From: a bacterium
Lineage (GTDB): Bacteria; Chloroflexota; Dormibacteria; Aeolococcales; Aeolococcaceae
Assembly (NCBI GenBank): GCA_021803465.1
Contig: JAJZLL010000011.1
Span: 913 to 64,912 of the forward strand
Length of the DNA: 64,000 nt
Direction of reading: 5' to 3'
Shown here piece by piece: positions 192 to 35,725 of this stretch. Position 1 is the first letter of the stretch. Each line of letters begins with the position of its first letter. Position numbers and translations under genes: made by a program. Under the pieces are notes generated by a model. That model saw nothing but the letters and a program-made list of their open reading frames with translations. It searched no databases and had not been told where the DNA came from.

Positions 192-776
192 CTATCCTGT
201 CAGATTCCACATGGGTGTCTGGCCCTCTGCACCAGCGATTGCGTAGGTCAGCTGCACGGGAACGGACTTCACGGGAACATCAAATACAATGTAACCACTA
301 GCTGGCTTGTTGAGGACAAAGACATTGAGCCCAGTTCCAGAAAGCTCATGTGCAAATGTTGTGGAGCCAAGTCCATGCAGGTCTGGCTGTTGCGCAACAG
401 GAAGGTGCTGTATTCCGTCCGAATCCGTGATGACTGCATACAGGCCAGCCATCATTGACACCTGGTCCGGTGGATTGGCATTCCCTGCAACACCTTCATA
501 TGTGATCTGGAGTTCCACTGCAACAGCACGCTGACCCTTAGGCGCACTGACTCCCTTGACTGGATCGACAATGTTCGCCAGCTTGACGTTCAAGCCGAGC
601 GGCATACCCTTCTGAACAAGCGTAGTTGGCTGGATCTGGCCAATTCCTGCGTAGTGCACGACAAATGGAGTAGCTGCAGTACCTGAGCTCCCTGCTCCCC
701 CACCGCATGCAGCAATGCCAAGAGTGATAAGCGCACCAAGTGCGAGTTGGACAAAGCGGTAGTGTCTCCTGTTCAT
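192..776 (-). CDS. Predicted lipoprotein of unknown function
   Basis: ORF 192..875 trimmed to internal Met (MNRRHYRFVQLALGALITLGIAAC...) giving signal peptide + lipobox LGIAAC; ATG overlaps stop of upstream gene (ATGA at 773-776), suggesting co-transcription. Confidence 0.5.
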   Translation of the reverse strand: MNRRHYRFVQLALGALITLGIAACGGGAGSSGTAATPFVVHYAGIGQIQPTTLVQKGMPLGLNVKLANIVDPVKGVSAPKGQRAVAVELQITYEGVAGNANPPDQVSMMAGLYAVITDSDGIQHLPVAQQPDLHGLGSTTFAHELSGTGLNVFVLNKPASGYIVFDVPVKSVPVQLTYAIAGAEGQTPMWNLTG

Positions 777-2197: not shown

Positions 2198-2379
2198 AAT
2201 CCCATCCTTGAGTTTCCCTGTTAAGCAGTGATCACCCGTATTGCAGACCACAGCTCCTGCATCCCCATTAACCTAGCACGTTCTTCGAATACATGGTGGT
2301 CGCAATTGTGACACAGATGAAAGCGGCCGGCGCTCCTCTTGGAGCGGCCGACCGCTTTTGCTTCTTCAAGTTTGGACTG

Positions 2380-4413
2380 CTAGCCCTGATTTGGCTCAAC
2401 CTGCTTCACAATGAGGGGATTGGAATTCACCTGATTGTAGCTCACATTGGTTGTGGTCCATGGGAAGTCATGCCATGCACCCTGCAGGTAGAGAGGATAT
2501 ATCGGATAGGTGTACGACTGGAGATATGTGTGGTAGTTCCAGTACCACCCAGTGTACCAATAGCCCCAGGTTGCAATGTTGTAGTAGAGGTACCAGTTCG
2601 TGTAGCCCTGCGGAGTCGCGATGGTATAGGAGGGGTACCCAGCATAGCTTTCCCAGCCAATATTTCCAGCATAGTTGCAGTATGCGACCCACCATATTCC
2701 CATGTCCGCATCACCATCCCGGTCAGGGTTGACAGTCTGGTTGTCTGCACACTGGTCGAAGCCAACAGAGTTCCAGCCAGTTGCATATGCCTGCCATGCA
2801 GTACTGTATGAGAAGTTGTAGTCCGTATACGTCCCCCACACACCATAGGTCCACTGCGTGTAATCATACTTCGCGATCGGATCCTGGGACCAGCTGCCTA
2901 CCGTGTGGAGGCTCGTCTGTGTCAGTGGACTTGATGGTGCCTGTGGATAGAACTGGAAATATGGAGGGGGAACATTGTAGTTGTACTGGCATCCACCTGC
3001 CTGTGCACAGGTGTCCACGACCTGTCCACTGTACGGCTGTGGTCCTGTTGAATTCGGATTGGTCGTATAGGTTTGTGGATTGACCACATAGTAGGTGTAG
3101 GATGCCCACTGTGGAACATACTTGATGACCCATTGGTAGTTGAGCTGTGACGTGTGGTAGTAAGCAGTGTACGAAGCAACATGCTGCTGGTCAACGGACG
3201 GATATGTAGGAGAGCTGGTCAAATACGGAGCCCACCCGCCATACCAAGTCGTCACAACGGGTCCTGGATACCAGATTGCCGAAGGCTGGGTGGACATAGA
3301 CACATCATCACCATCATCGTAAAGACAGCCATACCACCTGCCATCAGGAATGTAGCCACCTCCGTAGTCGGCCTCTCCAGCCTCGTTCTGCCAGCCACCA
3401 CCCGCATTCACGCAGTAGTTGAACTCGTCTGACCACCACGGAAGAAACTGGTTGCCATCACTCCATGAGCAGCATCCAACGGAGCCACCCTGGTCAGCAC
3501 CAAGGAGCGGATAGTAGCCAGCAGGATAAACATACTGTGACGTGTACTGCTGCGAATTGTTTGTAATGTAGTACTGGGTGAAAGACTGGGTCTGATCATT
3601 CGTGTAGCCAGCACGCCATGCCTGTGGCTGCTGCGTCACATACGATGCATTTGCAGTGGGACATGTTGCTGTCGGAGTCCCCGCATAGACAGTGGCAGGG
3701 TTGCCGCAGTTGTACGATATCGTCTGAGCCTTAAGTTGGTAGGTTGTATATGGCTGCTTTCCAGACCAGATGACAACGAGGGAAGGTGTGTAGTTTCCAG
3801 CAGTCGCATATGTGTGAGTGACTTTCATGGTATATGTTGGAGGATTCGTTGCAGGTGAAGTAGCCGTGAGAGGTAACACAATGCATGGCTGTGTGGCACC
3901 AGACGCTGCCGAGGATGAGGTGTAAGGGAAATTTCTTGAGGAAACTGTATTCGTGGTGTAGTTGCAGACTGAGTTTGGATTCTGATTTGGGTAGTAGAAC
4001 TCGAGGACTACCTCAAATGGCTGCCACTCGATGAGCTCGTTGGTCCCGTTCGATGGAGCTGGAGCTGCAGGATTCGTGCAGGTCTGGAGGGGAATGGAGT
4101 TGTTTCCATTGACTGGCGGCTCAGTGTACACGCACTTGTCAACCTGTGCACTGAACTGTTCAGGATAGCCGACTACACCCGGGACTGGACCTTCAGTCAA
4201 AGAGGAACTGCTCGCAGGAGGGCATGATTGCTGTGATCCTGGAAGATAGCAGTTCAGCGTTGAGACTGGAGGGGGGCTCGATGCCTGCACAGTCTGCACA
4301 CCAAGCGTACCCAAGCCAATGACAAAGCTGCCAAGAGCAATCATCAGGGACACAACAATGCCAACGGCCCGGGATGACAGAGCCATCGCTGTCCTTTTCC
4401 ATGTACTTCTCAT
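2380..4413 (-). CDS. Large secreted Tyr/Trp/Thr/Gln/Asn-rich protein (N-terminal signal anchor), function unknown
   Basis: 682-aa ORF; N-terminal hydrophobic segment AVGIVVSLMIALGSFVIGLG; extreme aromatic/polar low-complexity composition (e.g. ...GYTNWYLYYNIATWGYWYTGWYWNYHTYLQSYTYPIYPLYLQ...); same strand and immediately downstream of TadE-like genes. Confidence 0.5.
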   Translation of the reverse strand: MRSTWKRTAMALSSRAVGIVVSLMIALGSFVIGLGTLGVQTVQASSPPPVSTLNCYLPGSQQSCPPASSSSLTEGPVPGVVGYPEQFSAQVDKCVYTEPPVNGNNSIPLQTCTNPAAPAPSNGTNELIEWQPFEVVLEFYYPNQNPNSVCNYTTNTVSSRNFPYTSSSAASGATQPCIVLPLTATSPATNPPTYTMKVTHTYATAGNYTPSLVVIWSGKQPYTTYQLKAQTISYNCGNPATVYAGTPTATCPTANASYVTQQPQAWRAGYTNDQTQSFTQYYITNNSQQYTSQYVYPAGYYPLLGADQGGSVGCCSWSDGNQFLPWWSDEFNYCVNAGGGWQNEAGEADYGGGYIPDGRWYGCLYDDGDDVSMSTQPSAIWYPGPVVTTWYGGWAPYLTSSPTYPSVDQQHVASYTAYYHTSQLNYQWVIKYVPQWASYTYYVVNPQTYTTNPNSTGPQPYSGQVVDTCAQAGGCQYNYNVPPPYFQFYPQAPSSPLTQTSLHTVGSWSQDPIAKYDYTQWTYGVWGTYTDYNFSYSTAWQAYATGWNSVGFDQCADNQTVNPDRDGDADMGIWWVAYCNYAGNIGWESYAGYPSYTIATPQGYTNWYLYYNIATWGYWYTGWYWNYHTYLQSYTYPIYPLYLQGAWHDFPWTTTNVSYNQVNSNPLIVKQVEPNQG

Positions 4414-4547: not shown

Positions 4548-5135
4548 TCAGCAGTAGTCAATCGGCACGCCTGTAGAAGGACATGTATGACTGCGGAATG
4601 GTTCCAGCGCTTCTGCAGATACTGCCCTCACTGTTGCGTGATTCCAGAGGGGAATCCAGGAGAGAGTGATGGTCGCTTTCACATCAACACCCACTACTCC
4701 TCCCCTCCATATGCCAAAACATCCGCCATCTCCTCCGGCTCCCCCATATCCATCACCAGTACATGATGCTGGTATGCCTGTACATGTGTTTGCCCCAGCA
4801 GTGCTTATTGTGCAGCTGGCTGAACTGAGAGCTGCAGCACATGTGATGGCAGGCGTTGGATACGGAGTTGTATAGAGTGGTGACTTCAACGCGCTGTCAA
4901 AGGCTGCAATGGCCTGTGCATACCCAGTGTCACCATTTGCGCATGAGTCGTTACTGTTTCTCGCAATGGTGAGAGCAGCCTCATTGGATGCCTGCTGGAG
5001 TAGGCTTTGCGCCTGAATGTACGAGTCAATTGCAATGGCTCCAAAGAACACCGTGATCATAACTGGCAGGAGAACAGCGAACTCCACCATCGTCTGGGCT
5101 CTTCCACTTCGCCGTTGGTAGGTACGCCTTCTCAT
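4548..5135 (-). CDS. TadE-like Flp pilus assembly protein (pseudopilin)
   Basis: N-terminal TadE motif RAQTMVEFAVLLPVMITVFFGAIAI; ATGA overlap with upstream gene at 5132-5135. Confidence 0.7.
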   Translation of the reverse strand: MRRRTYQRRSGRAQTMVEFAVLLPVMITVFFGAIAIDSYIQAQSLLQQASNEAALTIARNSNDSCANGDTGYAQAIAAFDSALKSPLYTTPYPTPAITCAAALSSASCTISTAGANTCTGIPASCTGDGYGGAGGDGGCFGIWRGGVVGVDVKATITLSWIPLWNHATVRAVSAEALEPFRSHTCPSTGVPIDYC

Positions 5136-5743
5136 TGTTCAAACTCCTGCACAGTGAAGGTGTCTTGGGCATATACGGGAAGTCTGTTGCCAAGTATGGG
5201 AGCAGGTGCAATGAGAGGCTTGTACCCTACTATGGTCACAGTGATAACGAGTGTTGATGTCAGGGATCCACCGTTTGTGTTCGCTGTTGCGCACACCATG
5301 AGAACATTTGATGCTGATGCGGATACACGAGTATTGAGGTATGCAAGTTCCTGCTTTTCTGTTGGTGGAGTTGACACACTGTATGTGGGACCAAGAGGAC
5401 GATATCCCAGAGGACAGGATGTGACAGGCATTGGATTCCCCGCACCACATCTCCCTCCTGTAGTTCCGCTTACCAGTGGTGTTGTGCCAAGAAAGCTTTC
5501 CGAAGTCGCTGCATGGTACGCCGTCTCCCCAGCTAGACATTCCAGTTGTAGAGCATTCGTTGGCATGCCTGCTACCTGAACTCCCTCCTGAGCAGCAAAT
5601 TCGAGACTGTTGAGGTCCAGCTGCCAAAGGAAGGCAACCACTCCTCCAAAGATGATGACAATGAACACAGGGAAAACGAAGGTGAATTCCACAAGCGACT
5701 GAGCTCGTGACCTTTTCCTCAAAGTTGTCGAAGGTGCTCTCAT
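5132..5743 (-). CDS. TadE-like Flp pilus assembly protein (pseudopilin)
   Basis: N-terminal RAQSLVEFTFVFPVFIVIIFGGVVAF matches TadE/TadG-like N-terminal domain. Confidence 0.7.
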   Translation of the reverse strand: MRAPSTTLRKRSRAQSLVEFTFVFPVFIVIIFGGVVAFLWQLDLNSLEFAAQEGVQVAGMPTNALQLECLAGETAYHAATSESFLGTTPLVSGTTGGRCGAGNPMPVTSCPLGYRPLGPTYSVSTPPTEKQELAYLNTRVSASASNVLMVCATANTNGGSLTSTLVITVTIVGYKPLIAPAPILGNRLPVYAQDTFTVQEFEQ

Positions 5744-5744
5744 G

Positions 5745-6611
5745 TCAGTCTCCTAAACAGCCATACGCTGTGGATTTCGACTGCATGAGGATGGAGGACT
5801 CGCCAATGAAGACCCCAAATGGCTGGCTCGCCTGCATCCAGATTCTGACTGTCACCTGCCTTCCGAAAAGTCCTGTTGCTGGACACACATACAGGGATCC
5901 GGATGATGAATCATGAGCATCCGTCTGAGCTGCACCACCGGCCCCGACATCATCACTCACTCCACCAGTCGGGTCATCGCCATCAAGCATGTACGATGAA
6001 CTTACTTGCACCTGGAACTCAATATTTGTCAGAGAACTTCCCTGCTCAGCAGCTTTGCACTGTGACGAAGTGTATACGCCAGTTCCGCTTTCTGTTCCCT
6101 CACAGGGCTGTGTTGCTGTTGGAGCTGCTGCTGCATTTATCGTATACCCGGGAAAGGCCTGCTTGAGCACATTATTCACAGAGTATTCTGCGGACAGCGA
6201 GGCGATCTGCTGCTCCTCTGTCTGGACAATTGCCCAATCAGCAGGGCTGAACGATGCAGGTGTTCCAAGAATGCCGGGGGACGTTTCCATGGGAAACATG
6301 TCCGGAGCGATGCCCGAAGCATAGTCAGTGGTGTAACCACCATACTGACATTCATATTCGTTGTAGTTGTACTGAGATGCCATGCACGCATCACCGCTAG
6401 CAGCGATAGCGGCAACGACAGTCGCTGCATCTAGCCTGCTCCTCGCGTTGAGGAAAATCTCGCCAGACATTGTGAGCCCCAGGAGGGCAATGATGACAGG
6501 AAGCATGAGAGCGAACAGGGGCATGACCTGAGCCCTGCCTGTGGAACGTGCACCAGTCAGCCGAGACTCTGAATATCCCAGATCAAACCGCACCTGGGAC
6601 AGCCTTCGCAT
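5745..6611 (-). CDS. TadG-like putative pilus assembly protein
   Basis: N-terminus GRAQVMPLFALMLPVIIALLGLTMSGEIFLNARSRLDAATVVAAIAA resembles Tad N-terminal (PF13400-type) segment; long Ser/Thr/Gly-rich extracellular part; start trimmed to MRRLSQ... Confidence 0.55.
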   Translation of the reverse strand: MRRLSQVRFDLGYSESRLTGARSTGRAQVMPLFALMLPVIIALLGLTMSGEIFLNARSRLDAATVVAAIAASGDACMASQYNYNEYECQYGGYTTDYASGIAPDMFPMETSPGILGTPASFSPADWAIVQTEEQQIASLSAEYSVNNVLKQAFPGYTINAAAAPTATQPCEGTESGTGVYTSSQCKAAEQGSSLTNIEFQVQVSSSYMLDGDDPTGGVSDDVGAGGAAQTDAHDSSSGSLYVCPATGLFGRQVTVRIWMQASQPFGVFIGESSILMQSKSTAYGCLGD

Positions 6612-6765
6612 TGTGCTTCGAGTATGTCTTCGGTTCCGAATCACATGCACGTCCTTATTGCAGCCCAAATTGCATCCGCAGCTCCATGGTCACATCTGTT
6701 CCCAAGAAGCGCAACTGCATGTTGGTTACAACATTGACACGGAATCATGCACACGCTCGCTGCCT

Positions 6766-7662
6766 TCATGATGCATCCCCGTCATGTCCATTCGTGTCCC
6801 CTGCATTGGAAGCGGAATATCCCTTGAGATATGTCACTGTTCCCTGCCCGATGGTACTGCCCATAATGGAGCTTCCGCTTGCTCCGATAGTCACCGTAAC
6901 ACTGCCAAGCCCTATCCCCGGCAGAGCAATGCTCCATTCTCTAATGGATCTGGATCTATCAATGAACACGGTAGCGTAAAGCTTAGCGCCATGAGTGAGG
7001 GCAGTCTGCGCAAGCCGGTTCGCCGCAACTGCGAGAGGCCCAGATGCGCGTGAGGGAACAACGGCAAGATCCACCTTGCAGGTGATTTCCTCACCAATCA
7101 GACCATCAAAGGTCACATTCTTGGCGGATACGATGCCAACAGTTCCCCAGTCAATGAGGGAAAGAGACACAGCCGGATCAACCGTCACCAAGTCTGCCAC
7201 TGTGGCGGGGAGCTGTCTTGTTACAGTGGGCACTGTGCTCAGCTGGGCAGCAGTCCACTTGGACGGCTGTGCATTCTGTGGAACAATGCCACTATAGAAG
7301 AGTGTGCTGTCACCGAACTCCATCACAACTGCTTTGCCTGACTTCACATCTATGTTCAGGAATCCCGAATCAGAAGAGAAATCGAATCTCCCTGCAGCCT
7401 CAGCACCCAGATGGAATGGCAACAGTGGCACACTGGAGTTCCACGACTCTTTCACGCTGTAGGCTCCCTGACTGATGGCAGCAACACTTGCAGCAAGTTC
7501 ATTGATATATGGGATTGCTGAAGCTGGTGGTACATCAGAAAACGATGGTCCGCCCGAGATTGAGGATGTGTCCAGGCTGTGACTCGCACATGAAGTTCCC
7601 ATGGTAATCACAAAGCAGGCTGCAAGTAATACGTGGATTCTGGATTTATGGGAACAGAGCAT
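6766..7662 (-). CDS. Hypothetical secreted lipoprotein
   Basis: 298-aa ORF, N-terminal signal with LAAC lipobox-like motif; embedded in Tad operon on same strand. Confidence 0.45.
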   Translation of the reverse strand: MLCSHKSRIHVLLAACFVITMGTSCASHSLDTSSISGGPSFSDVPPASAIPYINELAASVAAISQGAYSVKESWNSSVPLLPFHLGAEAAGRFDFSSDSGFLNIDVKSGKAVVMEFGDSTLFYSGIVPQNAQPSKWTAAQLSTVPTVTRQLPATVADLVTVDPAVSLSLIDWGTVGIVSAKNVTFDGLIGEEITCKVDLAVVPSRASGPLAVAANRLAQTALTHGAKLYATVFIDRSRSIREWSIALPGIGLGSVTVTIGASGSSIMGSTIGQGTVTYLKGYSASNAGDTNGHDGDAS

Positions 7663-7741
7663 GACATCCCTCTTCGCTTCTCTTCCCCTTCCCTGCAGCC
7701 CCCCCCAACCGGCTCAAAAAGGTTTGCCCTGAACCAGGTAT

Positions 7742-8326
7742 CTACAGCCTGTTGAGCGGGCTTGGAAGTGTGGAGCCAAACATGTAGGACGAGTATACGG
7801 TGATGGGCTGCTGTGCACTGAGGAAGTAGACAATGTACTTCACTGGATTTCCTTGAGAAGAACTTCCAACGCTCGTGACAGTGAAATTGCCCTGCACAAT
7901 CACCACCCACACCTTGGACGGAATGTGTGGCACTCCATTCACATACTGGCTCACCAGCGACTCATCCACCAACTGTGGTGGCAGGCAGCTTATCGCTCCT
8001 TTTGCAGAGATGTTGCCCTGCTGGTTGAGGATCTCATGAACCAGCGAAACGAGCTCAGATACAGTAGTTGCTCCGCTTGGTGTCGCAATGGGGGGGAGTG
8101 TCTGCCCTGGAGACAACGTAATTGGGGAGGGTGTTGGACCACCCGGTTGATATGTTGCAGATCCACAGTTCGCGTCATACTTCGCATTCACAAGCGGTCC
8201 AACATGGGTGCTTGGTTTGGGGATGCTAGGTGTTGGAGTGGTTTGCTTCGCTCCCTGCTGCTGTCCGCATCCTGCAAGGAGGAGAATCCCAGACAATATT
8301 GCAGCAATTGATGCGATTTTCTTCAT
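7742..8326 (-). CDS. Hypothetical lipoprotein
   Basis: MKKIASIAAILSGILLLAGCG signal peptide/lipobox; Pro/Thr-rich linker. Confidence 0.5.
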   Translation of the reverse strand: MKKIASIAAILSGILLLAGCGQQQGAKQTTPTPSIPKPSTHVGPLVNAKYDANCGSATYQPGGPTPSPITLSPGQTLPPIATPSGATTVSELVSLVHEILNQQGNISAKGAISCLPPQLVDESLVSQYVNGVPHIPSKVWVVIVQGNFTVTSVGSSSQGNPVKYIVYFLSAQQPITVYSSYMFGSTLPSPLNRL

Positions 8327-8363
8327 GGCAAATTCTGACCTTTTCGTGTTCATGGTTGTACGC

Positions 8364-9212
8364 CTACCCGAAGAGTTGTTGGAACGAACCTGAATTCACT
8401 CCAGGGTCGGGAGTTGGTGAAGGAGAGCTGCCATAGGTAATGAAGTTCGAGTTGCTGAGAAGAACATATTCAAGGATTGAGCTCTGCGTTGGATTCTTTG
8501 GATCCATGATATAGCTCAGCAGTTCAGCTTCAGACTCTGGAATGCCGACAATAAGCTCAGAAGCAGTACCTGAATTTGCCTGTCCTACAGTACCAACATT
8601 GAGGATCGTCACATTGTGCGCGATGACCTTTATCTGGCCCTGGCCATTGACGTCCGCAAGTATGTCAATCTGGTCTCCTGGCTGAAGGAATCCGCCCACT
8701 CCCTCCATTGCGTTCATGGGTATGGCAAGCGCCACATAGCCTGAGGGAAGCGAGAATGGATCCTCTCGACATGTACCCTGCGAGACTGCAGTTGCTTTTG
8801 GTGAACTTGACGGCGAGGTGGACGTTATGAGCGTGGGAGCGGCTGAAGCCTGCGGAGTGCACACTACAGCAATGCCCGTTGTTTTCGTTGGACTCACAAG
8901 GCTTGGAGTGAGTATCTGCTGAGGTGCAATGCTGACAATCGCATACTGGCCGACTACTTTTGACGGATTCGTATACGCGCCAGCTGGAACAGCAGTCGTT
9001 GGCACCTGCACTGCAGAGACTTCAGCCTGGGTGATAGCGCTGCCGTTTGGAATTTCGCTTGTGGCCTCAACGACGTACACCATGGGAACGCTCGAGATGC
9101 CGCCCCCTGCTTTCGTAAGCACGATGAGACCAACTGCTCCAGCAGCGGCAATGATGAGACCCACGACTATCGCGATGAGTTTGTTCGGACGGCCACCTGG
9201 CCTCATTGTCAT
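8364..9212 (-). CDS. cpaB: Flp pilus assembly protein CpaB/RcpC (SAF-domain)
   Basis: N-terminal TM (LIAIVVGLIIAAAGAVGLIVL) followed by SAF-like segment VVEATSEIPNGSAITQAEVSAVQVP and RcpC-like C-terminus; start trimmed to internal Met. Confidence 0.65.
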   Translation of the reverse strand: MTMRPGGRPNKLIAIVVGLIIAAAGAVGLIVLTKAGGGISSVPMVYVVEATSEIPNGSAITQAEVSAVQVPTTAVPAGAYTNPSKVVGQYAIVSIAPQQILTPSLVSPTKTTGIAVVCTPQASAAPTLITSTSPSSSPKATAVSQGTCREDPFSLPSGYVALAIPMNAMEGVGGFLQPGDQIDILADVNGQGQIKVIAHNVTILNVGTVGQANSGTASELIVGIPESEAELLSYIMDPKNPTQSSILEYVLLSNSNFITYGSSPSPTPDPGVNSGSFQQLFG

Positions 9213-9498
9213 ACCCATAGAGCTGATCCTACGTCCTTTTCTAAGCTGCATTGGCGGTGCGAACCGCATGGGGAGACGTATGCGATTCGACACCTAGTGT
9301 AGGGTAAACGGGAGGAAATGTGTGATGATCCGTGTTACGATCCTGTGCCAATGGGAACGCGACAGCCATTCACTTCCCACCCTGTCCACGTGCACGTCAC
9401 AGCGAGGTGACAGATCTGCAGCACCAGTCCCTGCGCAGGCGCTTCCATCCTACAGTTGGGACATCAACGCTGTGCAGCTTCGAGGGAGGAGCACCACC

Positions 9499-9801
9499 AT
9501 GATCGTGAATCAGCATCTCAGCAGCAGAGAAATCCAGTATGCGTTCCCAAAAGGACTTCCTGATGCAGCTGTACGCGACAGCATTGCCACAGCCATCCAG
9601 CATGATTACCAGTTTGGAAAGTCACATGAGAGAGCACTTCCTGAATCGATGAGGCCCGTTCTCGCAAGTGTGCACAGCACCACTGCACCCAGGGTGAGCA
9701 CATACTACTCCAAGGTCGAGTCCTCCCTCGCAGCCCAGGGTCCAGCAGCCAACCAGACCCAAGGAGCACGTGTCCGGGCGAACGTCAACATCCTCGAGTA
9801 G
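9499..9801 (+). CDS. Hypothetical small protein (~100 aa)
   Basis: Sub-ORF of 9322..9801 beginning MIVNQHLSS..., preceded by GGGAGGAG Shine-Dalgarno 9 nt upstream; sits just upstream of mutY-like gene on same strand. Confidence 0.3.
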   Translation: MIVNQHLSSREIQYAFPKGLPDAAVRDSIATAIQHDYQFGKSHERALPESMRPVLASVHSTTAPRVSTYYSKVESSLAAQGPAANQTQGARVRANVNILE

Positions 9802-9841
9802 GTAGCTTGCATCGGGAACTTCACCTGCCACTTTCGTTAGA

Positions 9842-10738
9842 GTGGAGGATGTGGCAGCACGAGCACATTCCAGACTGAAGCCTGAACAAGCTTCCCCTCC
9901 CACTCGTGTGGATGCACTTCCACTCGCGGCCTGGTACCGTGCGCACGGAAGGCACGACCTCCCCTGGCGCCACACGATGGATCCCTGGCACATCCTCGTG
10001 AGCGAATTCATGCTGCATCAGACTCAGGTGTCTCGTGTGATCGAATACTGGACCCCGTTTGTAACACAGTGGCCAACACCCAAAACCTTTGCGGAAGCGC
10101 CGCTTCCAGACATCCTGCGGGCATGGAAGGGCCTCGGATATCCCAGACGGGCCCGCAATCTCCAAGATGCTGCAACACACATCTGGCAGCAGGGCTGGCC
10201 TGAGAACGAGAGTGGGCTTCTTGCCCTGCCAGGAATCGGCACCTATACCGCAAGGGCAATGCGCATCCTGGCCTGGAATGATGGAGCCTGCCAGCTCCCC
10301 CTCGATGTCAACATTGCCCGAGTGTTCTGGCGGCTCACTGCCACTGCAGGGGAAGTGGAGACTACAGGATGGAGCATGTCACGGCGTGAACTTGTCTACG
10401 CCCTTTTCGATCTTGGCTCCCTGATCTGCCGTGCACGGACACCGCTCTGTCCACAATGTCCACTTTCCTCTTCCTGCACTGCGTTTGGCACAGGCATGGA
10501 CTCGGCCCCCCTCCTGAGAAAGCGCCAGGCACCATACCGTGGATCCTTCCGCGAACTACGGAGCGCAGTACTCGCACTCTGTCTTGCAGACTCCACGCTT
10601 TCCATCGCAGCTCTTGAGAAGCGCAGTGTCCACATCCTTGGAAGAGCACCTGAACGGAATGAGATAGAGAGGGCACTCCGTTCGCTGGCAGCGGACGGCC
10701 TTCTCCAGATGACACTGACAGAGGACCATCCACTATGA
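9842..10738 (+). CDS. mutY: A/G-specific adenine glycosylase-like HhH-GPD base-excision repair enzyme (MutY catalytic domain only)
   Basis: HhH-GPD motifs (LVSEFMLHQTQV..., LPGIGTYTARAM), GLGYPRRARNL, and 4Fe-4S loop CRARTPLCPQCPLSSSC; only 298 aa so no NUDIX-like C-terminal domain. Confidence 0.75.
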   Translation: MEDVAARAHSRLKPEQASPPTRVDALPLAAWYRAHGRHDLPWRHTMDPWHILVSEFMLHQTQVSRVIEYWTPFVTQWPTPKTFAEAPLPDILRAWKGLGYPRRARNLQDAATHIWQQGWPENESGLLALPGIGTYTARAMRILAWNDGACQLPLDVNIARVFWRLTATAGEVETTGWSMSRRELVYALFDLGSLICRARTPLCPQCPLSSSCTAFGTGMDSAPLLRKRQAPYRGSFRELRSAVLALCLADSTLSIAALEKRSVHILGRAPERNEIERALRSLAADGLLQMTLTEDHPL

Positions 10739-11793
10739 TCTCCCCGTTGAGCCGTGAGCTCCTTGATGCTGGTGGGGGCATCAGCTTCCAGCCCTCTCTC
10801 ACGCTTGATCCAGCCCGCATGGAATGTCCAGCCAAGCCAGAAGACGTGCCCCAGGTGGTGTTCGCAGGCTTTGCTTCTCCGTTCAGTGTTCTCATCCTCC
10901 TCGAGCTGCTCGCATCCGCACAGTTTTCCGTTGCAGGAATACTCACGAGTCACCGTGGTGGAAGCATCATTGCGAACAACCGGACCCTTGCGGGAATCGC
11001 GGAGCATTTCCACATTCCATTCATCGGAGCAGCCAACATCAACGCTCCTGACGTGGCTGCAGCAGTCCATGGCTGGAATCCCGATCTTGGCATCATAGCG
11101 AGCTTCGACCAGATCTTCCATGCGCAGCTGCTCTCGATACCGGTCCATGGGTGGATCAATGTCCACCCCTCACTGCTGCCCTGGTATAGGGGAGCAGAGC
11201 CACTCTTCTGGACACTCGCGAACGGCGAGCGCACTGCAGGCATCTCGTTTCACCGTGCAGTCGAGCGGTTTGATGAAGGGGCCCTACTTGCCCAGAACAT
11301 GGTGCCTGTCGAGCAGGATGATACGGCTGGACGTCTTCTCGCACGGCTCATGGAAGGAGCGCTTACACTGCTCCCTTCCGTGCTTGACTACGCCATGCAT
11401 GGTGGGAAAGGAACACTGCAGCCCAATGGAAGCTATCCTGCTGCACCTCCCATTGGGCACTTCCCGCTACGTGCCTGCGAGAGTGCCCAGCAGGCACGAA
11501 GAATCGCCCTGGCAGGACTCCCTGACTTTGCTCCATGGATCGAGCTCAACGGAACGCGCCTGTTCATCCGCGCAGTATCGGATGCTCCTCTCCTCAACAC
11601 CATTTCCCTCACCTTTCCTGATGGATCTCAACTGTGGTTCCCCGAGCTCACTGAGCAGTGCAGCTGCATCCACCACCGCCCAGACTGCCCTGCAATTCGT
11701 GATACGCTTCCCACGTCACGCGCACTTCCTCCTATAGTAGGTAGCAGCGAACACATTTCCACAGCGGAGCATAGTGCAGCGAGGAATCCATGA
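10735..11793 (+). CDS. Formyltransferase-family protein (Fmt-like)
   Basis: Formyl_trans_N-like motifs: VVFAGFASPFSV, HGWINVHPSLLPWYRGAEPLFWTLANGERTAGISFH; ATGA overlap with mutY stop. Start could alternatively be the internal Met at 10816. Confidence 0.65.
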   Translation: MISPLSRELLDAGGGISFQPSLTLDPARMECPAKPEDVPQVVFAGFASPFSVLILLELLASAQFSVAGILTSHRGGSIIANNRTLAGIAEHFHIPFIGAANINAPDVAAAVHGWNPDLGIIASFDQIFHAQLLSIPVHGWINVHPSLLPWYRGAEPLFWTLANGERTAGISFHRAVERFDEGALLAQNMVPVEQDDTAGRLLARLMEGALTLLPSVLDYAMHGGKGTLQPNGSYPAAPPIGHFPLRACESAQQARRIALAGLPDFAPWIELNGTRLFIRAVSDAPLLNTISLTFPDGSQLWFPELTEQCSCIHHRPDCPAIRDTLPTSRALPPIVGSSEHISTAEHSAARNP

Positions 11794-12224
11794 ACGAGAG
11801 GAAGCCACTCAGCAATCAGACTGATCCCCTGCATACCTATGTCCAGAAGGATGAGTTCTACACCCTCTCTGCACCAGAAAGGAGTGGATCATCCAAGACG
11901 CTGTGCCTGTTTCTGCTTGATCCCGAACTGAACGAGCAGTCCCGCGAGGGCCACTTCTCCCTCATCTCCGGGTACACGCGTGAGAATGAGCCGAAGTGCA
12001 TCATTGCTGATGCCCTTGCTGTCCTTCTCATTGAAGGCGGTGTGGAGGGTGCTGGACGACTGTGTGGACGCATTCTCCAGCTGTTCTCATCCCTTCACCT
12101 AGCGCAGATTCTCACAGTGCTTGTCACTTCCCTACCTGGACCACTCACTCCCGAGCGCACAGCAGAGCTTGTTGCCAAGGGACGGACACTGGAAGCTGGT
12201 GCAGTCCACGTCATCGGGGAGTAG
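11790..12224 (+). CDS. Hypothetical protein
   Basis: 144-aa ORF whose start overlaps the stop of the formyltransferase gene (operon-like); no recognisable motif. Confidence 0.4.
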   Translation: MNERKPLSNQTDPLHTYVQKDEFYTLSAPERSGSSKTLCLFLLDPELNEQSREGHFSLISGYTRENEPKCIIADALAVLLIEGGVEGAGRLCGRILQLFSSLHLAQILTVLVTSLPGPLTPERTAELVAKGRTLEAGAVHVIGE

Positions 12225-12244
12225 CATCACTTCGTTTCCCGGAT

Positions 12245-12292
12245 GCGGCAGGAGCGGCAGCACATGGGAATCATGTCCTGCCACTCCCTGCG
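12245..12292. terminator. Putative bidirectional hairpin terminator between convergent flp and hypothetical gene
   Basis: Imperfect inverted repeat gcggcaggagcggcag ... ctgccactccctgcgg in the 89-nt convergent intergenic region. Confidence 0.35.
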
Positions 12293-12313
12293 GTTGTTCA
12301 CTTCAAGGGATAT

Positions 12314-12529
12314 CTATCCAGTCGCGTATTTCACTCCTTTCTCAATGTTGGAATACACGTTGTTGACCTGGTGACCAAGAAGAATGACTGTCACAAGCAC
12401 CGCCAGCGCAATGAGTACGATTATGAATGCATATTCGACGATACCCTGACCCTTCTCATCCTGGCTTCCCAGTCGCATCCCGTCCCTGCATCGCAGCAGG
12501 CCGGGAAGAGATCGAAGCCACGTTGCCAC
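12314..12529 (-). CDS. flp: Flp family type IVb prepilin
   Basis: Processing/mature motif GQG|IVEYAFIIVLIALAVLVTVILLG (G/XXXXEY) with short C-terminus; probable GTG start (VATWLRS...) 9 nt downstream of SD GGAAAGGAGG. An in-frame ATG at 12478 would give a shorter leader. Confidence 0.7.
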   Translation of the reverse strand: MATWLRSLPGLLRCRDGMRLGSQDEKGQGIVEYAFIIVLIALAVLVTVILLGHQVNNVYSNIEKGVKYATG

Positions 12530-12538
12530 TATAGGCTG

Positions 12539-12619
12539 CCTCCTTTCCGTCTCGTGTTCTCGCACGCCCAATAATTCTGTGCCGAATTATAGCACCCTGT
12601 TACATTCGCAACTGCGATG
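12539..12619 (-). promoter_or_regulatory. Putative flp promoter and ribosome-binding site
   Basis: Perfect -10 TATAAT (complement of 12586-12591) with TTGCGA-like -35 upstream; SD GGAAAGGAGG (complement of 12539-12548) before GTG start. Confidence 0.4.
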
Positions 12620-13555
12620 TCATCCACCTGTCATAATCTTGACGATTGCGGGCCCGAGAAGCACGAGAAACACGCATGGAAAGATGCAGAGCAGCATGGG
12701 AAGCAGCATGAGTACAGGTGCCTTGTGTCCCGCCTCCTCCGCCCTCTGCTTCCGTATTCTCCGGAGTTCCTCCGACTGGACACGGAGCACATTGGCCACA
12801 CTCACGCCAAGGGGTTCTGCCTGAACGACTGCCCGGATGAAGTTGTCGAGCTCATCGACTGGATTCCTCTCCGACATGGCAGTGAGAGCCTCAAGCCGTG
12901 GCCTGCCCAGACGGATCTCGTCGAGTGTCTTCTGGAACTCCTTTCCCAATGGACTCTGTTCCGACTCGGCCACACGGTTCATGGCCATGTCCATGCTGAG
13001 CCCTGCCTCCATGCTGATGGTCAGGAGATCCATGACGCCTGGAAGGGCACGGGAGATGAGCTTCTGCCTCTTCTTGATCTTGCTCTTGAGTGATGAAACA
13101 GGAAGACTCCTGCCAAAGAAGACCCCTCCTGCAACTGCTGCAAGCGTGATCGGAAGCCCAAGGCTGAGATAGTTCCCCAGGAAGAATGCTGCCACGACAA
13201 AGACGATCGGGAGAATGATCTGCTGTCCCAACAGCATCTGGGGTGACTTCCCCTCAACGTCAGCCTGGACAATAAGCCGCTGGAGTTTCTCGATCTGGCC
13301 CGCCTTCGAATTCCTCATCATGAGGTTGCCAATGCGGTTGAAGAGCGGTGATATCACCCGTTCCGAGAAGGGAAGGGCCATCTCGTCATCACTGGCTGGC
13401 AGTGCAATGTTCGAACTTCCACCCATTGCCTCATCAACTCCGTAGAGGCGCTGCTCAAGGCGATCCTTGCTGGTTGAGGGAGAAGCTATCACAAGCACGA
13501 GGACAAAGACCCCGATGATGACTGCAATGCCTTCCACGATAGTGATCGGTGTCAT
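12620..13555 (-). CDS. tadC: Tad pilus inner-membrane platform protein TadC (T2SS F family)
   Basis: 311 aa, N- and C-terminal TM helices flanking cytoplasmic T2SSF-like domain (LISRALPGVMDLLTISMEAGLSMDMAM...). Confidence 0.8.
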   Translation of the reverse strand: MTPITIVEGIAVIIGVFVLVLVIASPSTSKDRLEQRLYGVDEAMGGSSNIALPASDDEMALPFSERVISPLFNRIGNLMMRNSKAGQIEKLQRLIVQADVEGKSPQMLLGQQIILPIVFVVAAFFLGNYLSLGLPITLAAVAGGVFFGRSLPVSSLKSKIKKRQKLISRALPGVMDLLTISMEAGLSMDMAMNRVAESEQSPLGKEFQKTLDEIRLGRPRLEALTAMSERNPVDELDNFIRAVVQAEPLGVSVANVLRVQSEELRRIRKQRAEEAGHKAPVLMLLPMLLCIFPCVFLVLLGPAIVKIMTGG

Positions 13556-13560
13556 TACTG

Positions 13561-14547
13561 CTACACCTCCACATTCACTATCTTGCGGATGATGGCATAG
13601 CCGCCTGCAATCATGAAGAAGGCAAAGCCGAGCATGATCTGGCCAGGCAGCTTCGTGAGCATGGGATCAAAGTAGGTTGGAGCAATCATGTAGAGGATTC
13701 CACTCAGTGCCAGCGGCAGCACTATGAGCACCCAGCCTGAAGCACGGGCCTGTCCAGTTATGGTCTTGATCTCACCCTTGATGCGCACACGTTCCCGGAT
13801 GGTGTATTCGATGTTGTCAAGAATGACAGCGAGATTTCCACCCACCTGCTGCTGGATCTGGATGGCTGTCATGAGAAGCTTCAGGTCCTCCGACTCGCTC
13901 CGCTCGACCATGTGGCCAAACGCCTCAATGAAGGGGACTCCCAGCTGTGTCTCCCGCATCACGCGTGCGAGATCTGGCCCCATGGGTGGAGCCGCATTCT
14001 GGGAAACCAGACTCATCGCCTGAGCAAGCGTGTACCCCGCCTTGACTCCATTGCTGAGTGCGAGGACAGTCGGGCCAAGCTGGTCCTCAAACTTCTTCCG
14101 CCGCTTGTTGTAGCGCATCTTCAGGTAGTAGCGGGAACCGACAATGCCAATGATTATGCCCACAATGAGACCAAGGATGCTTTTGAAGCGCAGCATGAGC
14201 AGCAGTCCCAGCACAATGCTTCCCGCAGTCGACATCGCTGTCCACTCCGCTGGGTGCAGCTTGAGGTCAGCCCTCTGCAGCTGCTCCACCAGCTTTGCTC
14301 CACGAGTGGACTTTTCGAAGCGCTTCCCAACACTCTGCTGCAGCGAATCGCGGATGTCGAACGACCTCCGCTTCGTGCCCTGAAGCGCAAGAGGAGTGTC
14401 TCCATACTCATCTTCCCATTCACTCTCCATTGACGGCGTGGCTTCAGGCTCTTCCGCAGCACGGGCCTTTGAGCCCGTGAGGAGGAACACTGCGCTGAAC
14501 ACTCCCAGGATGACGAGTGCACCGGCAATGAGAGAGACGAAAGTCAC
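13561..14547 (-). CDS. tadB: Tad pilus inner-membrane platform protein TadB (T2SS F family)
   Basis: 328 aa, T2SSF-like domain (FEDQLGPTVLALSNGVKAGYTLAQAM...), adjacent to tadC. Confidence 0.8.
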   Translation of the reverse strand: MTFVSLIAGALVILGVFSAVFLLTGSKARAAEEPEATPSMESEWEDEYGDTPLALQGTKRRSFDIRDSLQQSVGKRFEKSTRGAKLVEQLQRADLKLHPAEWTAMSTAGSIVLGLLLMLRFKSILGLIVGIIIGIVGSRYYLKMRYNKRRKKFEDQLGPTVLALSNGVKAGYTLAQAMSLVSQNAAPPMGPDLARVMRETQLGVPFIEAFGHMVERSESEDLKLLMTAIQIQQQVGGNLAVILDNIEYTIRERVRIKGEIKTITGQARASGWVLIVLPLALSGILYMIAPTYFDPMLTKLPGQIMLGFAFFMIAGGYAIIRKIVNVEV

Positions 14548-14562
14548 AGTTGTTCACCCATG

Positions 14563-15420
14563 CTACTGGACGTAGTTGTTGATGTTTGATGGACCGACTG
14601 ATGCTGCCCCGGAAAGCTGGCCATTCTGGTACAGGGCACCGTTGGCAATGACAAAGCTCAGAATTGCGGACGGGTTTGTTGCCTGGAGATATTCGAAGGC
14701 TGCAGCCTGAGCTGGCGACATCTCCACAATGAGCACGGAAGGCGTGGTCACAACGGGTGGTGGAGCTGCTGTCGTACTGCCAGACTTCGCTGCAGGAGAT
14801 GCAGCAGTGGCCGATATTGTTTCATCAAGACTTCCCACCTTGAGCACTTTGACATCCTGGAATCCGTACGATACGGGAGTGCCTTTGCCCCCAATCTGGG
14901 TGAGGATGTTGATGAAGTCACCCGGCTGGATGTAGTAGCCAAGACCAAGGGTCACGTTTGTGGTGATTGCCACAGCAACATCCCCTGGATCGGGGAACAC
15001 GCTGTCCGAAGCGGAAGGGACACCTGTCGCATTCGATGTCACAAATGTGGACTGCAGAATTGTGCCCTGGGCTATCTGGATCGCAGAGAACTTGCCAACG
15101 ACTCCTGTCGTAGTCGAAAACACTGTCCCCTGCGGGAGTACTGTCTGGGGAACCTTCTTGACTGCAACCATGCTCAGGGAGAGCAGTGTGCCCTGGGGAA
15201 TGGGCGATGAGGCAACAACGACACTCACTGTAGGACCCTGGACTGACCCTGTGGGCGTGCCAGCAGCCTTTGGAGCATGACCCTGGGACAGGGCAAGAGC
15301 AAATCCTCCAGCTGCGACAACTGCGGCAATAATAGCAATGAGAATCCTTCGGCTTTGTCCACCTTGGTTCACTGAAGTCTCCTTTTGGATGGGCTCACAC
15401 TCACAGCAGTGCTCATACAT
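14563..15420 (-). CDS. cpaB: Second CpaB/RcpC-like Flp pilus assembly protein (SAF domain)
   Basis: N-terminal TM (ILIAIIAAVVAAGGFALAL) + SAF-like segment and Pro/Thr-rich C-terminal part; same architecture as 8364..9212. Confidence 0.6.
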   Translation of the reverse strand: MYEHCCECEPIQKETSVNQGGQSRRILIAIIAAVVAAGGFALALSQGHAPKAAGTPTGSVQGPTVSVVVASSPIPQGTLLSLSMVAVKKVPQTVLPQGTVFSTTTGVVGKFSAIQIAQGTILQSTFVTSNATGVPSASDSVFPDPGDVAVAITTNVTLGLGYYIQPGDFINILTQIGGKGTPVSYGFQDVKVLKVGSLDETISATAASPAAKSGSTTAAPPPVVTTPSVLIVEMSPAQAAAFEYLQATNPSAILSFVIANGALYQNGQLSGAASVGPSNINNYVQ

Positions 15421-15536
15421 GCACCACTCTCCATCCTACGGACGCCCAACGTGGGACCAAGGGTTTTCACACACTTGTCACCCGATCGCATCACGGCGTG
15501 CACGCAGGAATTGTGCGGATCGATATACTGCGATCG

Positions 15537-34840: not shown

Positions 34841-35047
34841 TTCGACTCCTCAACTGCAATGCATTCCTCCACCCGTCAGGGCTTGGTGCCAGTATAGGTG
34901 GAGTCATTTCCGGGCAGGGCTTCCTGTCACCCCATTGTTACCGCTTCGCAGACTTCCACAGTTCGAGTGTTTCAGCGCACAAGGACACTGCTGCTCCTGA
35001 GCCGTGCCCTTCCCGAAGGTGCCCAGAATTCTCTACACTGCTTACAC

Positions 35048-35700: not shown

Positions 35701-35725
35701 GTTCACCCTTCCTTTCCAGTGGTTC

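What the first reader, a model, noticed from the sequence alone, without database searches (positions are those of the whole stretch)
4548..15420. Tad/Flp pilus locus lacking ATPase, TadZ and prepilin peptidase, and split by an unrelated operon
The window holds flp, tadB, tadC, two cpaB/rcpC paralogs, two TadE-like and one TadG-like gene. No TadA/CpaF secretion ATPase, no TadZ/CpaE and no TadV peptidase lies between cpaB (14563-15420) and tadB, where they normally sit, or anywhere else in the 64 kb. The locus is also split by a plus-strand mutY-like / formyltransferase / hypothetical operon (9842-12224). Either the motor genes are elsewhere in the genome, which is an unusual architecture, or this is a remnant or atypical Tad-like system. 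No secretin is present, consistent with a monoderm-type envelope.
Basis: partly seen in the sequence, partly recalled or inferred. Interest (0 to 1): 0.55.

Follow-up and report, generated by a model that had tools for sequence, protein, structure and literature searches.

The report
Dispersed Tad pilus genes, motor elsewhere
A soil bacterium of the uncultured phylum Dormibacterota keeps the membrane platform, pilin and minor-pilin genes of a Tad adhesion pilus here under strong selection. The motor ATPase gene lies somewhere else, a scattered layout that is rare for this pilus type but conserved across the class.

Summary
The window (Candidatus Dormibacteria, monoderm) encodes cpaB1-tadB-tadC, flp, cpaB2, two TadE and one weak TadE/TadG-like gene. 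No TadA/CpaF, TadZ/CpaE or A24 peptidase lies in the 64 kb or in 7.6 kb further left.

It is not a remnant. tadB, tadC, cpaB and tadE have dN/dS of 0.03-0.10, like nuoM and nuoN.

The region is four transcription units, not one split locus:
- cpaB1-tadB-tadC, beside resB. This module lacks an ATPase in every Dormibacteria relative examined.
- flp alone, with its own extended -10 promoter and terminator hairpin.
- An unrelated plus-strand operon.
- A cpaB2/pseudopilin operon found almost only in this genus.

In a sister Dormibacteria lineage a CpaF-type tadA sits about 9 kb from cpaB-tadB-tadC, or more than 10 kb away as an orphan gene, and flp with tadZ-like genes sits about 4 kb downstream.

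The best reading is a working Tad (type IVc) pilus whose motor, TadZ and peptidase are supplied in trans. I could not locate tadA in this genome or in any resB-type genome, so that step is inferred.

This is a moderately interesting variant of a known system.

The parts
14563..15372 (-). cpaB1: membrane-anchored SAF + RcpC protein and first gene of module 1. The ORF runs to 15420, but the likely start is GTG 15372, after the SD AAGGAG.
   Evidence: Pfam SAF 31.7 bits and RcpC 31.8 bits. TIGR03177 scores 65 bits, just below its cut-off. The start is conserved in L009 and L010. dN/dS 0.06.
15373..15480 (-). Conserved 5' leader of cpaB1 with a hairpin (AGTGGTGC - variable loop - GCACYRCT). Function unknown.
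   Evidence: Alignment of the window, L009 and L010. No Rfam match.
13561..14547 (-). tadB: T2SSF-family inner-membrane platform protein.
   Evidence: Pfam T2SSF 59 bits. More than 120 Dormibacteria homologues at 43-88% identity. dN/dS 0.04.
12620..13555 (-). tadC: second T2SSF platform protein. Its start lies 5 nt after the tadB stop.
   Evidence: Pfam T2SSF 69 bits. dN/dS 0.03.
12586..12594 (-). Extended -10 promoter element TGCTATAAT for flp.
   Evidence: It is the only perfect TGnTATAAT in the 64 kb. It is invariant in L009 and L010 inside an otherwise diverged spacer.
12314..12529 (-). flp: Flp-type prepilin of 71 aa. GTG start 8 nt after AAAGGAGG. Predicted cleavage DEKG|QGIVEYAF.
   Evidence: Flp_Fap 22 bits, below cut-off. 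47% identity to the Flp of L018, which passes the cut-off. Motif read directly from the sequence. dN/dS 0.12-0.20 with an unusually low dS.
12248..12291 (-). Terminator-like hairpin after flp, between the convergent flp and hyp144 genes.
   Evidence: -38.6 kcal/mol, z = -4.8. An equivalent hairpin with a different sequence is present in L009 and L010.
9322..12224 (+). Unrelated plus-strand operon: hyp159 (9322-9801), HhH-GPD glycosylase (9842-10738), formyltransferase-like (10735-11793), hyp144 (11790-12224). Not part of the pilus system.
   Evidence: Pfam. Conserved in L009. Absent after tadC in L011, L013 and L015. dN/dS 0.10-0.30.
8364..9218 (-). cpaB2: second SAF + RcpC protein and first gene of module 2. 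27% identical to CpaB1.
   Evidence: Pfam. TIGR03177 scores 74.9 bits, above its cut-off. Only 4 homologues in the protein database. dN/dS 0.07.
7742..8353 (-). Predicted lipoprotein of 203 aa (lipobox LLAGC). Function unknown.
   Evidence: Sequence. The signal region matches a lipoprotein signal model. 61% identity in L009.
6766..7662 (-). Hypervariable 298-aa protein of module 2. Function unknown.
   Evidence: No family hit. Only 28% identity to the gene in the same position in L009.
5745..6593 (-). TadE/TadG-like pseudopilin, weakly supported.
   Evidence: TadE 16 bits, below cut-off. N-terminal hydrophobic segment GRAQVMPLFALMLPVII. 72% identity in L009.
5132..5743 (-). tadE2: TadE-like pseudopilin.
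   Evidence: Pfam TadE 28.8 bits. dN/dS 0.10.
4548..5135 (-). tadE1: TadE-like pseudopilin. Overlaps tadE2 by 4 nt.
   Evidence: Pfam TadE 35.5 bits. dN/dS 0.08.
773..4386 (-). Two co-directional downstream genes: a 668-aa Tyr/Trp/Thr-rich protein (2380-4386) and a 474-aa protein (773-2197), each with an N-terminal TM segment. Possibly surface or pilus-associated. Membership of the system is unproven.
   Evidence: No Pfam hit. Gene calls on ENA contigs. 54% identity in L009.

Best explanation
This is a working but dispersed Tad (type IVc / Flp) pilus gene set of a monoderm Dormibacteria bacterium.

**Module 1 (cpaB1-tadB-tadC).** It encodes the membrane platform plus the SAF/RcpC ring protein. 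It is an ancient, class-wide operon that has been uncoupled from its ATPase gene.

**flp.** In this genus the pilin gene sits just downstream as a separate unit, probably highly expressed, with its own extended -10 promoter and terminator.

**Module 2.** A genus-restricted operon 3 kb away encodes cpaB2, a lipoprotein, a hypervariable protein and three TadE/G-like pseudopilins. These would prime assembly and form the pilus tip.

**Supplied in trans.** The hexameric TadA/CpaF motor that docks on TadB/TadC, the TadZ/CpaE ParA-like partner and the TadV prepilin peptidase (cleaving DEKG|QGIVEY) would be encoded elsewhere in the genome.

**Shown:**
- the gene identities;
- the absence of the motor from about 72 kb of sequence;
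- purifying selection on the Tad genes;
- conservation of the ATPase-less module across the class;
- the existence of separately encoded tadA and tadZ-like genes in a sister Dormibacteria lineage.

**Inferred:**
- that this genome itself has tadA, tadZ and tadV;
- that the two modules and flp build one pilus.
For: **Identity of the parts.** Pfam and NCBIfam hits. The Flp motif is read from the sequence.

**Organism.** Candidatus Dormibacteria: relatives in GTDB genomes are 85-88% identical.

**Not decaying.** Against L009 and L010, which have dS above 1:

| gene | dN/dS |
|---|---|
| tadB | 0.04 |
| tadC | 0.03 |
| cpaB1 | 0.06 |
| cpaB2 | 0.07 |
| tadE | 0.08-0.10 |
| nuoM, nuoN | 0.03-0.04 |

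**Conserved ATPase-less module.**
- [ResB]-His_Phos(-)-cpaB-tadB-tadC is followed by unrelated genes in L011/L012, L013 and L015. TadB there is 47-56% identical, and the contigs reach 1.46 Mb.
- In an NJ tree these TadBs form one clade with the window's TadB.

**The motor exists in the class, encoded apart.**
- In L018 a CpaF-type gene lies about 9 kb upstream of cpaB-tadB-tadC, beyond ABC-transporter genes. flp with two ParA/AAA_31 (TadZ-like) genes lies about 4 kb downstream.
- About 20 orphan tadA loci without an adjacent tadZ/B/C form one clade. Two of them have cpaB-tadB about 8.7 kb away.
- One Dormibacteraeota MAG carries TadA and TadB on different contigs, with accession numbers 190 apart.

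**flp as its own unit.**

**Literature.**
- tadV is commonly a loner gene (PMC6668835).
- CpaF alone powers both extension and retraction (PMC11300603, PMC12019362).
- RcpC forms a periplasmic ring (PMC12307814).
Against: **The orphan tadA clade matches a different TadB clade.**
- It is congruent with the sister 'MacB-type' TadB clade, not the resB-type clade.
- Calibration on canonical loci predicts that a co-diverged TadA partner of the resB-type clade would be about 58-60% identical to the orphans.
- Every TadA retrieved at that distance has its own tadB next to it.

**Both searches that could have shown such a TadA were truncated.**
- One returned the best 120 of 7,987 proteins, and all of those were fragments.
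- The other stopped at 600 rows.

**Some steps are assumed, not shown.**
- That the two modules and flp cooperate is inferred from proximity only.
- Module 2 is absent from most Dormibacteria that have module 1.
- There is no expression data.
Confidence: 0.7

Rival explanations
1. Platform without a dedicated motor. The resB-linked cpaB-tadB-tadC module (plus flp in this genus) has no cognate TadA. It would borrow an ATPase from another Tad or type IV filament locus in the same genome, such as a canonical flp-cpaB-tadZ-tadA-tadB-tadC locus or the orphan tadA. Alternatively it does something other than pilus polymerisation.
For: - No TadA clade matching the resB-type TadB clade appeared among 80 TadA loci. 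All TadAs at the expected distance have their own tadB.
- The module lacks an ATPase in every resB-type locus seen, including contigs of 0.86 and 1.46 Mb.
- Canonical complete loci with closely related TadA exist in similar high-GC soil contigs (L022, L023, L056).
Against: - The TadA searches were truncated and biased towards fragments, so the absence of a matching clade is weak evidence.
- No genome was shown to hold both a resB-type module and another Tad locus. The accession numbers of resB-type and MacB-type TadBs point to different MAGs.
- In my own knowledge, sharing of one ATPase between two TadB/C platforms has no documented precedent.
Confidence: 0.17
2. Decaying remnant of a Tad locus that lost tadZ-tadA by deletion and is no longer used.
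For: The motor, TadZ and peptidase are missing from the window and its left flank.
Against: - All ORFs are intact.
- dN/dS is 0.03-0.12 over a divergence with dS above 1, as low as for the nuo genes.
- The module is conserved at 43-88% identity in more than 100 protein clusters.
- flp keeps a perfect promoter, SD and terminator in three genomes.
Confidence: 0.04
3. Two unrelated machines that happen to lie side by side. Module 1 plus flp is the pilus. Module 2 (cpaB2, lipoprotein, hypervariable protein, pseudopilins, large Tyr/Trp-rich proteins) serves a separate surface structure or secretion function.
For: - The modules have different phylogenetic spread: class-wide for module 1 against 4 homologues for module 2.
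- In L016 module 2 stands in a different context, with no module 1 on that 9-kb contig.
- Each module has its own CpaB.
Against: - TadE-like pseudopilins need a Tad platform, ATPase and peptidase, and module 2 has none of these.
- Module 1 plus flp has no pseudopilins of its own, so the two sets are complementary.
Confidence: 0.09

Closest known systems
Monoderm Tad/Flp loci of Actinobacteria (e.g. Bifidobacterium breve tad2003, Mycobacterium tuberculosis Rv3654c-Rv3660c, Micrococcus luteus). From my own knowledge, plus PMC9531140 and PMC4322843 as listed.
   Same: - Flp pilin with G/XXXXEY.
- Paired TadB and TadC.
- TadE/TadF-type pseudopilins.
- SAF/RcpC (CpaB) protein.
- No secretin.
- tadV encoded away from the locus.
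   Different: - In those loci tadZ-tadA lie directly upstream of tadB in one operon. Here they are absent from about 72 kb.
- cpaB abuts tadB with a 15-nt gap.
- There are two cpaB paralogues.
- flp is a separate transcription unit.
Canonical flp-cpaB-tadZ-tadA-tadB-tadC loci in high-GC soil metagenome contigs (L022-L024, L033-L050, L056, L089).
   Same: These are the closest complete systems. TadB and TadC are 37-48% identical to the window's, and the component set is the same.
   Different: They keep tadZ-tadA between cpaB and tadB. The window's clade has lost that adjacency, and its TadBs form a separate clade.
'MacB-type' dispersed Tad region of other Dormibacteria (L018, L019, L057, L063).
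   Same: - cpaB-tadB-tadC has no adjacent ATPase.
- The Tad genes are spread among unrelated genes.
   Different: - There tadA is about 9 kb upstream and divergently oriented, and flp-tadZ-RR-tadZ' is about 4 kb downstream.
- In the window neither tadA nor tadZ lies within 21 kb on one side or 50 kb on the other.
- In the window flp directly follows tadC.
Type IVa pili and the Myxococcus Kil Tad-like system (multi-locus type IV filament systems; PMC6668835, PMC8460266).
   Same: The genes of one machine are spread over several loci.
   Different: - Different family (T4aP), or a diderm system with a secretin (Kil).
- For Tad proper, Denise et al. report 'almost exclusively one locus' and call scattered systems 'very rare'.

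Membership tests
Tad / type IVc (Flp) pilus system | Flp-family prepilin with the G/XXXXEY processing motif and a hydrophobic N-terminus | tested here: met
   DEKG|QGIVEYAFIIVLIALAV. Flp_Fap scores 22 bits, below cut-off. 47% identity to a Flp that passes the cut-off.
Tad / type IVc (Flp) pilus system | Two paralogous T2SSF platform proteins, TadB and TadC, in tandem | tested here: met
   PF00482 at 59 and 69 bits, with the genes 5 nt apart.
Tad / type IVc (Flp) pilus system | TadA/CpaF ATPase (PF00437) encoded with the platform genes | tested here: not met
   - No hit in the window or the 7.6 kb to its left with a proteobacterial CpaF or a Dormibacteria TadA.
- No Walker A ORF in the window.
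- Presence elsewhere in the genome could not be tested.
Tad / type IVc (Flp) pilus system | TadZ/CpaE ParA-like protein | tested here: not met
   No tblastn hit with the Microvirga CpaE or the L018 TadZ-like proteins. No ParA/AAA_31 Pfam hit in the scanned ORFs.
Tad / type IVc (Flp) pilus system | TadV/CpaA A24 prepilin peptidase (may be a loner gene) | tested here: not met
   The window has no unassigned multi-TM ORF. Genes called on the left flank have no PF01478 hit on record. The family model allows this gene to be remote (PMC6668835).
Tad / type IVc (Flp) pilus system | TadE/TadF(G) pseudopilins | tested here: met
   Two TadE hits above cut-off and one weak hit of 16 bits.
Tad / type IVc (Flp) pilus system | RcpC/CpaB (SAF + RcpC) | tested here: met
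   Two paralogues, each with SAF and RcpC above the Pfam cut-offs. TIGR03177 scores 65 and 75 bits against a cut-off of 71.
Tad / type IVc (Flp) pilus system | Secretin RcpA/CpaC (diderms only) | tested here: not met
   No secretin domain in any scanned ORF. This is expected for the monoderm Dormibacteraeota (10.1101/2021.05.31.446380).
Tad / type IVc (Flp) pilus system | All core genes in a single locus (the usual genetic organisation) | tested here: not met
   There are four transcription units, with the motor absent. The same holds in relatives. The literature says 'almost exclusively one locus'.

The most novel reading that the evidence does not exclude
Across a large clade of Dormibacteria, the resB-linked CpaB-TadB-TadC platform has no cognate ATPase gene of its own. 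It would be driven by a TadA shared with another Tad locus or by an unrelated ATPase. This would be a trans-acting 'motor-sharing' arrangement in which one CpaF serves two distinct TadB/C platforms.
Probability: 0.15. Interest if true: 0.6.

Novelty: new variant of a known kind. Interest (0 to 1): 0.4.

Why it matters
**Rarity.** Tad pili are treated as the textbook single-locus, horizontally mobile type IV filament. Denise et al. 2019 find them 'almost exclusively in one locus' and call scattered systems 'very rare'.

**What this adds.** Here a whole class of an uncultured, globally abundant soil phylum keeps the platform operon stably separated from the motor gene, under strong purifying selection.

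**Practical consequence.** Locus-based detectors such as TXSScan or MacSyFinder run with co-localisation rules would probably miss or mis-score these systems. Dormibacterota might then be scored as lacking pili.

**Evolutionary interest.** It is a natural case for asking how stoichiometry and assembly are kept when tadA, tadZ, flp and tadBC are transcribed independently. It also allows a test of whether vertical inheritance relaxes the pressure for clustering.

**Limit.** Nothing here changes the understanding of the pilus mechanism itself.

Tried and rejected
- **Consensus promoter and terminator scan of 2-16.5 kb.** Counts were at chance level. The flp promoter was found only through the three-genome alignment.
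- **Rfam, whole window and the cpaB1 leader.** Nothing. No tRNAs either.
- **Exact look-up of the 492-aa ORF 773-2251.** It failed because of the wrong start codon.
- **Homologue search with CpaB2, hoping relatives would place it next to tadA.** Only 4 hits, none near an ATPase.
- **Search for the window genus's tadA with a TadA fragment from L018.**
  - The 120 listed hits were all fragments of 350 aa or less, and none came from the window's samples.
  - P0214 turned out to lie in a canonical tadA-tadB locus.
- **Matching contig lengths between TadA and TadB hits, to show co-occurrence on one contig.** No match.
- **Proximity of NCBI accession numbers, to place TadA and TadB in one MAG.** One pair was found, but it belongs to the MacB/L089 clade, not the resB clade.
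- **Hypothesis that orphan-tadA subclade A (L025-L032) is the partner of resB-type platforms.** It is disfavoured by the TadA/TadB divergence calibration. The subclades are 76% identical, against an expected value of about 58-60%.
- **Literature search for Dormibacterota pili.** Nothing specific.
- **Assembly artefact.** Rejected, because the arrangement is identical in at least 6 independent assemblies.

Full report
**1. What is in the window**

On the minus strand:
- cpaB1, 14563-15420 (SAF + RcpC)
- tadB, 13561-14547 (T2SSF)
- tadC, 12620-13555 (T2SSF)
- a small Flp gene, 12314-12529
- cpaB2, 8364-9293 (SAF + RcpC)
- a 203-aa lipoprotein
- a 298-aa protein with no family
- a weak TadE/TadG-like gene, 5745-6668 (TadE 16 bits, below cut-off)
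- two clear TadE genes, 5132-5743 and 4548-5135
- two large Tyr/Trp/Thr-rich proteins of unknown function

On the plus strand, between flp and cpaB2, lie a 159-aa hypothetical gene, an HhH-GPD glycosylase, a formyltransferase-like gene and a 144-aa hypothetical gene (9322-12224).

To the right of cpaB1 lie a histidine phosphatase (+), resB and the nuo operon.

Flp scores below the Pfam cut-off (22 bits against 32). Two things support it. It carries the diagnostic motif DEKG|QGIVEYAF. It is also 47% identical to a Dormibacteria Flp that passes the cut-off.

**2. Is the motor really absent?**

Yes, as far as the sequence reaches.
- A canonical CpaF and CpaE, taken from a Microvirga plasmid tad locus and checked with Pfam, give no tblastn hit in the window. 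The best E-value is 0.3, inside pepN.
- Dormibacteria-type TadA and TadZ-like proteins obtained later also give no hit at E<=1e-4.
- No ORF of 100 aa or more has a Walker A motif.
- The only multi-TM ORFs are TadB, TadC, ResB, Nuo subunits, an aquaporin and SecY, so there is no A24 peptidase candidate.
- The rest of the window is nuo genes, a WXG100/LysM cluster, pepN and ribosomal-protein operons.

The cluster lies only 4.5 kb from the left edge. I therefore fetched the same locus on a 127-kb ENA contig. The next 7.6 kb hold five hypothetical genes, topA, rpsB, tsf, pyrH, frr and uppS.

The same arrangement is present in at least 6 independent assemblies, so it is not an assembly artefact.

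**3. Organism**

The closest genomes are Candidatus Dormibacteria MAGs with TadB 85-88% identical. TadB homologues that carry a taxon label are almost all labelled Dormibacteria, Dormibacteraeota or Dormiibacterota. One, P0064, is labelled Candidatus Binatia.

The phylum is placed in the monoderm Chloroflexi/CPR/Dormibacteraeota clade (10.1101/2021.05.31.446380). This accounts for the missing secretin.

**4. Not a remnant**

Codon-level comparison with the two relatives L009 and L010 (dS above 1) gives these values:

| gene | dN/dS |
|---|---|
| tadB | 0.04 |
| tadC | 0.03 |
| cpaB1 | 0.06 |
| flp | 0.12-0.20 |
| cpaB2 | 0.07 |
| tadE genes | 0.08-0.10 |
| nuoM, nuoN | 0.03-0.04 |

dS is saturated, so the ratios are approximate. 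The constraint is nevertheless unmistakable.

**5. Four units, not one split locus**

(a) cpaB1-tadB-tadC are separated by 15 and 5 nt. They are preceded by a conserved leader and an SD-GTG start at 15372.

(b) flp is its own unit.
- It is preceded by the only perfect extended -10 element (TGCTATAAT) in the 64 kb. That element is invariant in three genomes within a diverged spacer.
- A strong SD follows the promoter.
- A hairpin of -38.6 kcal/mol (z = -4.8) follows the gene. Its pairing is kept with different sequences in the relatives.

(c) The plus-strand operon is unrelated. It is found after tadC only in this genus.

(d) Module 2 starts with cpaB2.
- CpaB2 has only four homologues among 5.8 billion proteins.
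- In the most distant of these, the cpaB2 operon sits in a different genomic context.
- So the 'split' is a juxtaposition of an old module with a young one.

**6. The ATPase-less platform module is conserved across the class**

More than 120 TadB clusters at 43-88% identity were found.

Contexts were read for four further lineages (TadB 47-56% identical, on contigs up to 1.46 Mb). Each shows [ResB]-His_Phos(-)-cpaB-tadB-tadC followed at once by unrelated genes. No ATPase, flp or tadE lies within 10 kb on either side. In an NJ tree these 'resB-type' TadBs form one clade with the window's TadB.

**7. Where the motor is in related lineages**

In a sister group of Dormibacteria, which I call 'MacB-type' (L018, L019; TadB 44-45% identical):
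- cpaB-tadB-tadC again lacks an adjacent ATPase;
- a CpaF-type gene lies about 9 kb upstream, divergently oriented, beyond ABC-transporter genes;
- flp with two ParA/AAA_31 (TadZ-like) genes and a response regulator lies about 4 kb downstream.

I built an alignment of Dormibacteria TadA fragments and used it to fetch 80 metagenomic tadA loci. They fall into two kinds.
- Canonical loci: flp-cpaB-tadZ-tadA-tadB-tadC.
- A monophyletic group of about 20 orphan tadA genes with no tadZ, tadB or tadC beside them. Two of these have cpaB-tadB about 8.7 kb upstream, as in L018.

The orphan tadA is typically followed by a PAS/GAF histidine kinase and an RR-EAL protein, and faces a second T2SSE ATPase operon.

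One Dormibacteraeota MAG carries TadA and TadB on different contigs, with accession numbers 190 apart.

Dispersal of Tad genes is therefore normal in this phylum, and CpaF-type motors are encoded apart from their platforms.

**8. What remains unproven**

I could not find tadA, tadZ or tadV for this genome or for any resB-type genome.
- The orphan-tadA clade is congruent with the MacB-type TadB clade. Both are sister to the canonical loci L024 and L089.
- A calibration on canonical loci relates TadB identity of 40-50% to TadA identity of about 58-60%. By that measure a co-diverged partner of the resB-type clade should be about 58-60% identical to the orphans.
- All TadAs retrieved at that distance have their own tadB next to them.
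- Both relevant searches were truncated. One listed the best 120 of 7,987 proteins, all fragments. The gap is therefore weak evidence.

It leaves open a motor-sharing or non-cognate-motor reading, to which I give about 0.15-0.17.

**9. Mechanism proposed**

- TadB and TadC form the membrane platform.
- CpaB, anchored in the membrane through its N-terminal helix, forms the SAF/RcpC ring that guides the fibre. RcpC is a dodecameric conduit in Pseudomonas (PMC12307814).
- Flp prepilin, made from its own strong promoter, is cleaved after DEKG by a remote TadV.
- The TadE/G-like pseudopilins of module 2 prime assembly.
- A trans-encoded hexameric TadA/CpaF docks on TadB/C and powers extension, and possibly retraction (PMC11300603, PMC12019362).
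- A TadZ-like ParA protein may position the machine.

Only the identities of the window-encoded parts are shown. The interactions are inferred from what is known of the family.

**10. Comparison and novelty**

The set is closest to monoderm Tad loci of Actinobacteria, and to the canonical high-GC soil loci found here. It differs in lacking tadZ-tadA between cpaB and tadB.

Denise et al. [quoted passage not shown]

A class-wide, selection-maintained separation of platform and motor is therefore a new variant of a known kind, not a new kind. Interest is moderate (0.4).

It matters mainly for two reasons. Co-localisation-based detectors would probably miss pili in Dormibacterota. It is also a test case for the link between clustering and horizontal transfer.

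Noticed in passing
window 12230-12640 (-): flp has a much lower synonymous divergence (dS 0.23-0.43) than its neighbours (1.2-1.8). This suggests nucleotide-level constraint, such as codon bias from high expression or mRNA structure, or else recent recombination.
   Followed up: partly
window 15373-15480 (-): A conserved leader of about 110 nt lies upstream of cpaB1, with a hairpin (AGTGGTGC - variable loop - GCACYRCT). The stem stays paired through G-U/A-U changes in three genomes. There is no Rfam match. It could be a regulatory RNA or an operator region.
   Followed up: partly
window 6766-7662 (-): The 298-aa gene of module 2 is only 28% identical to the gene in the same position in L009, while the flanking genes are 60-78% identical. 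It looks like a hypervariable or replaced cassette inside the pseudopilin operon, possibly an adhesin or tip component or a phage-receptor target.
   Followed up: no
L025 8254-19934 (also L020, L028, L051, L055, L064, L067, L073): Orphan tadA loci of other Dormibacteria share a conserved neighbourhood: a CAP-domain protein, then tadA - PAS/GAF histidine kinase - RR-EAL (c-di-GMP phosphodiesterase), then a convergent operon. That operon has a second T2SSE ATPase (463 aa) and three proteins without any Pfam hit (269, 729 and 241 aa).
   Followed up: partly
window (whole), L009, L010, L016 versus L011-L020: The window's genus has 50-56% G+C, whereas all other Dormibacteria loci fetched have 67-72%.
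   Followed up: no
window 34553-37400 (-): A WXG100 (ESAT-6-like) gene lies next to a 412-aa LysM protein and a 129-aa protein. This hints at a type VII-like secretion substrate cluster in a Dormibacteria genome.
   Followed up: no
window 773-4386 (-): Two large proteins (668 and 474 aa) are extremely rich in Tyr, Trp, Thr, Asn and Gln. Each has an N-terminal TM segment and no family match. They are co-directional with, and just downstream of, the pseudopilin genes.
   Followed up: no
L018 16073-18931; L019 15744-16303: In the MacB-type lineage flp is followed by two ParA/AAA_31 (TadZ-like) genes with a response-regulator gene between them. A third ParA-like fragment lies on the opposite strand next to rplA-rplK.
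   Followed up: partly
output: The protein search with a 200-aa TadA fragment listed only hits of 350 aa or less. Full-length, 99%-identical TadAs exist in JGI contigs (L063). The hit list seems biased towards proteins of similar length to the query, so absences in it are not informative.
   Followed up: no
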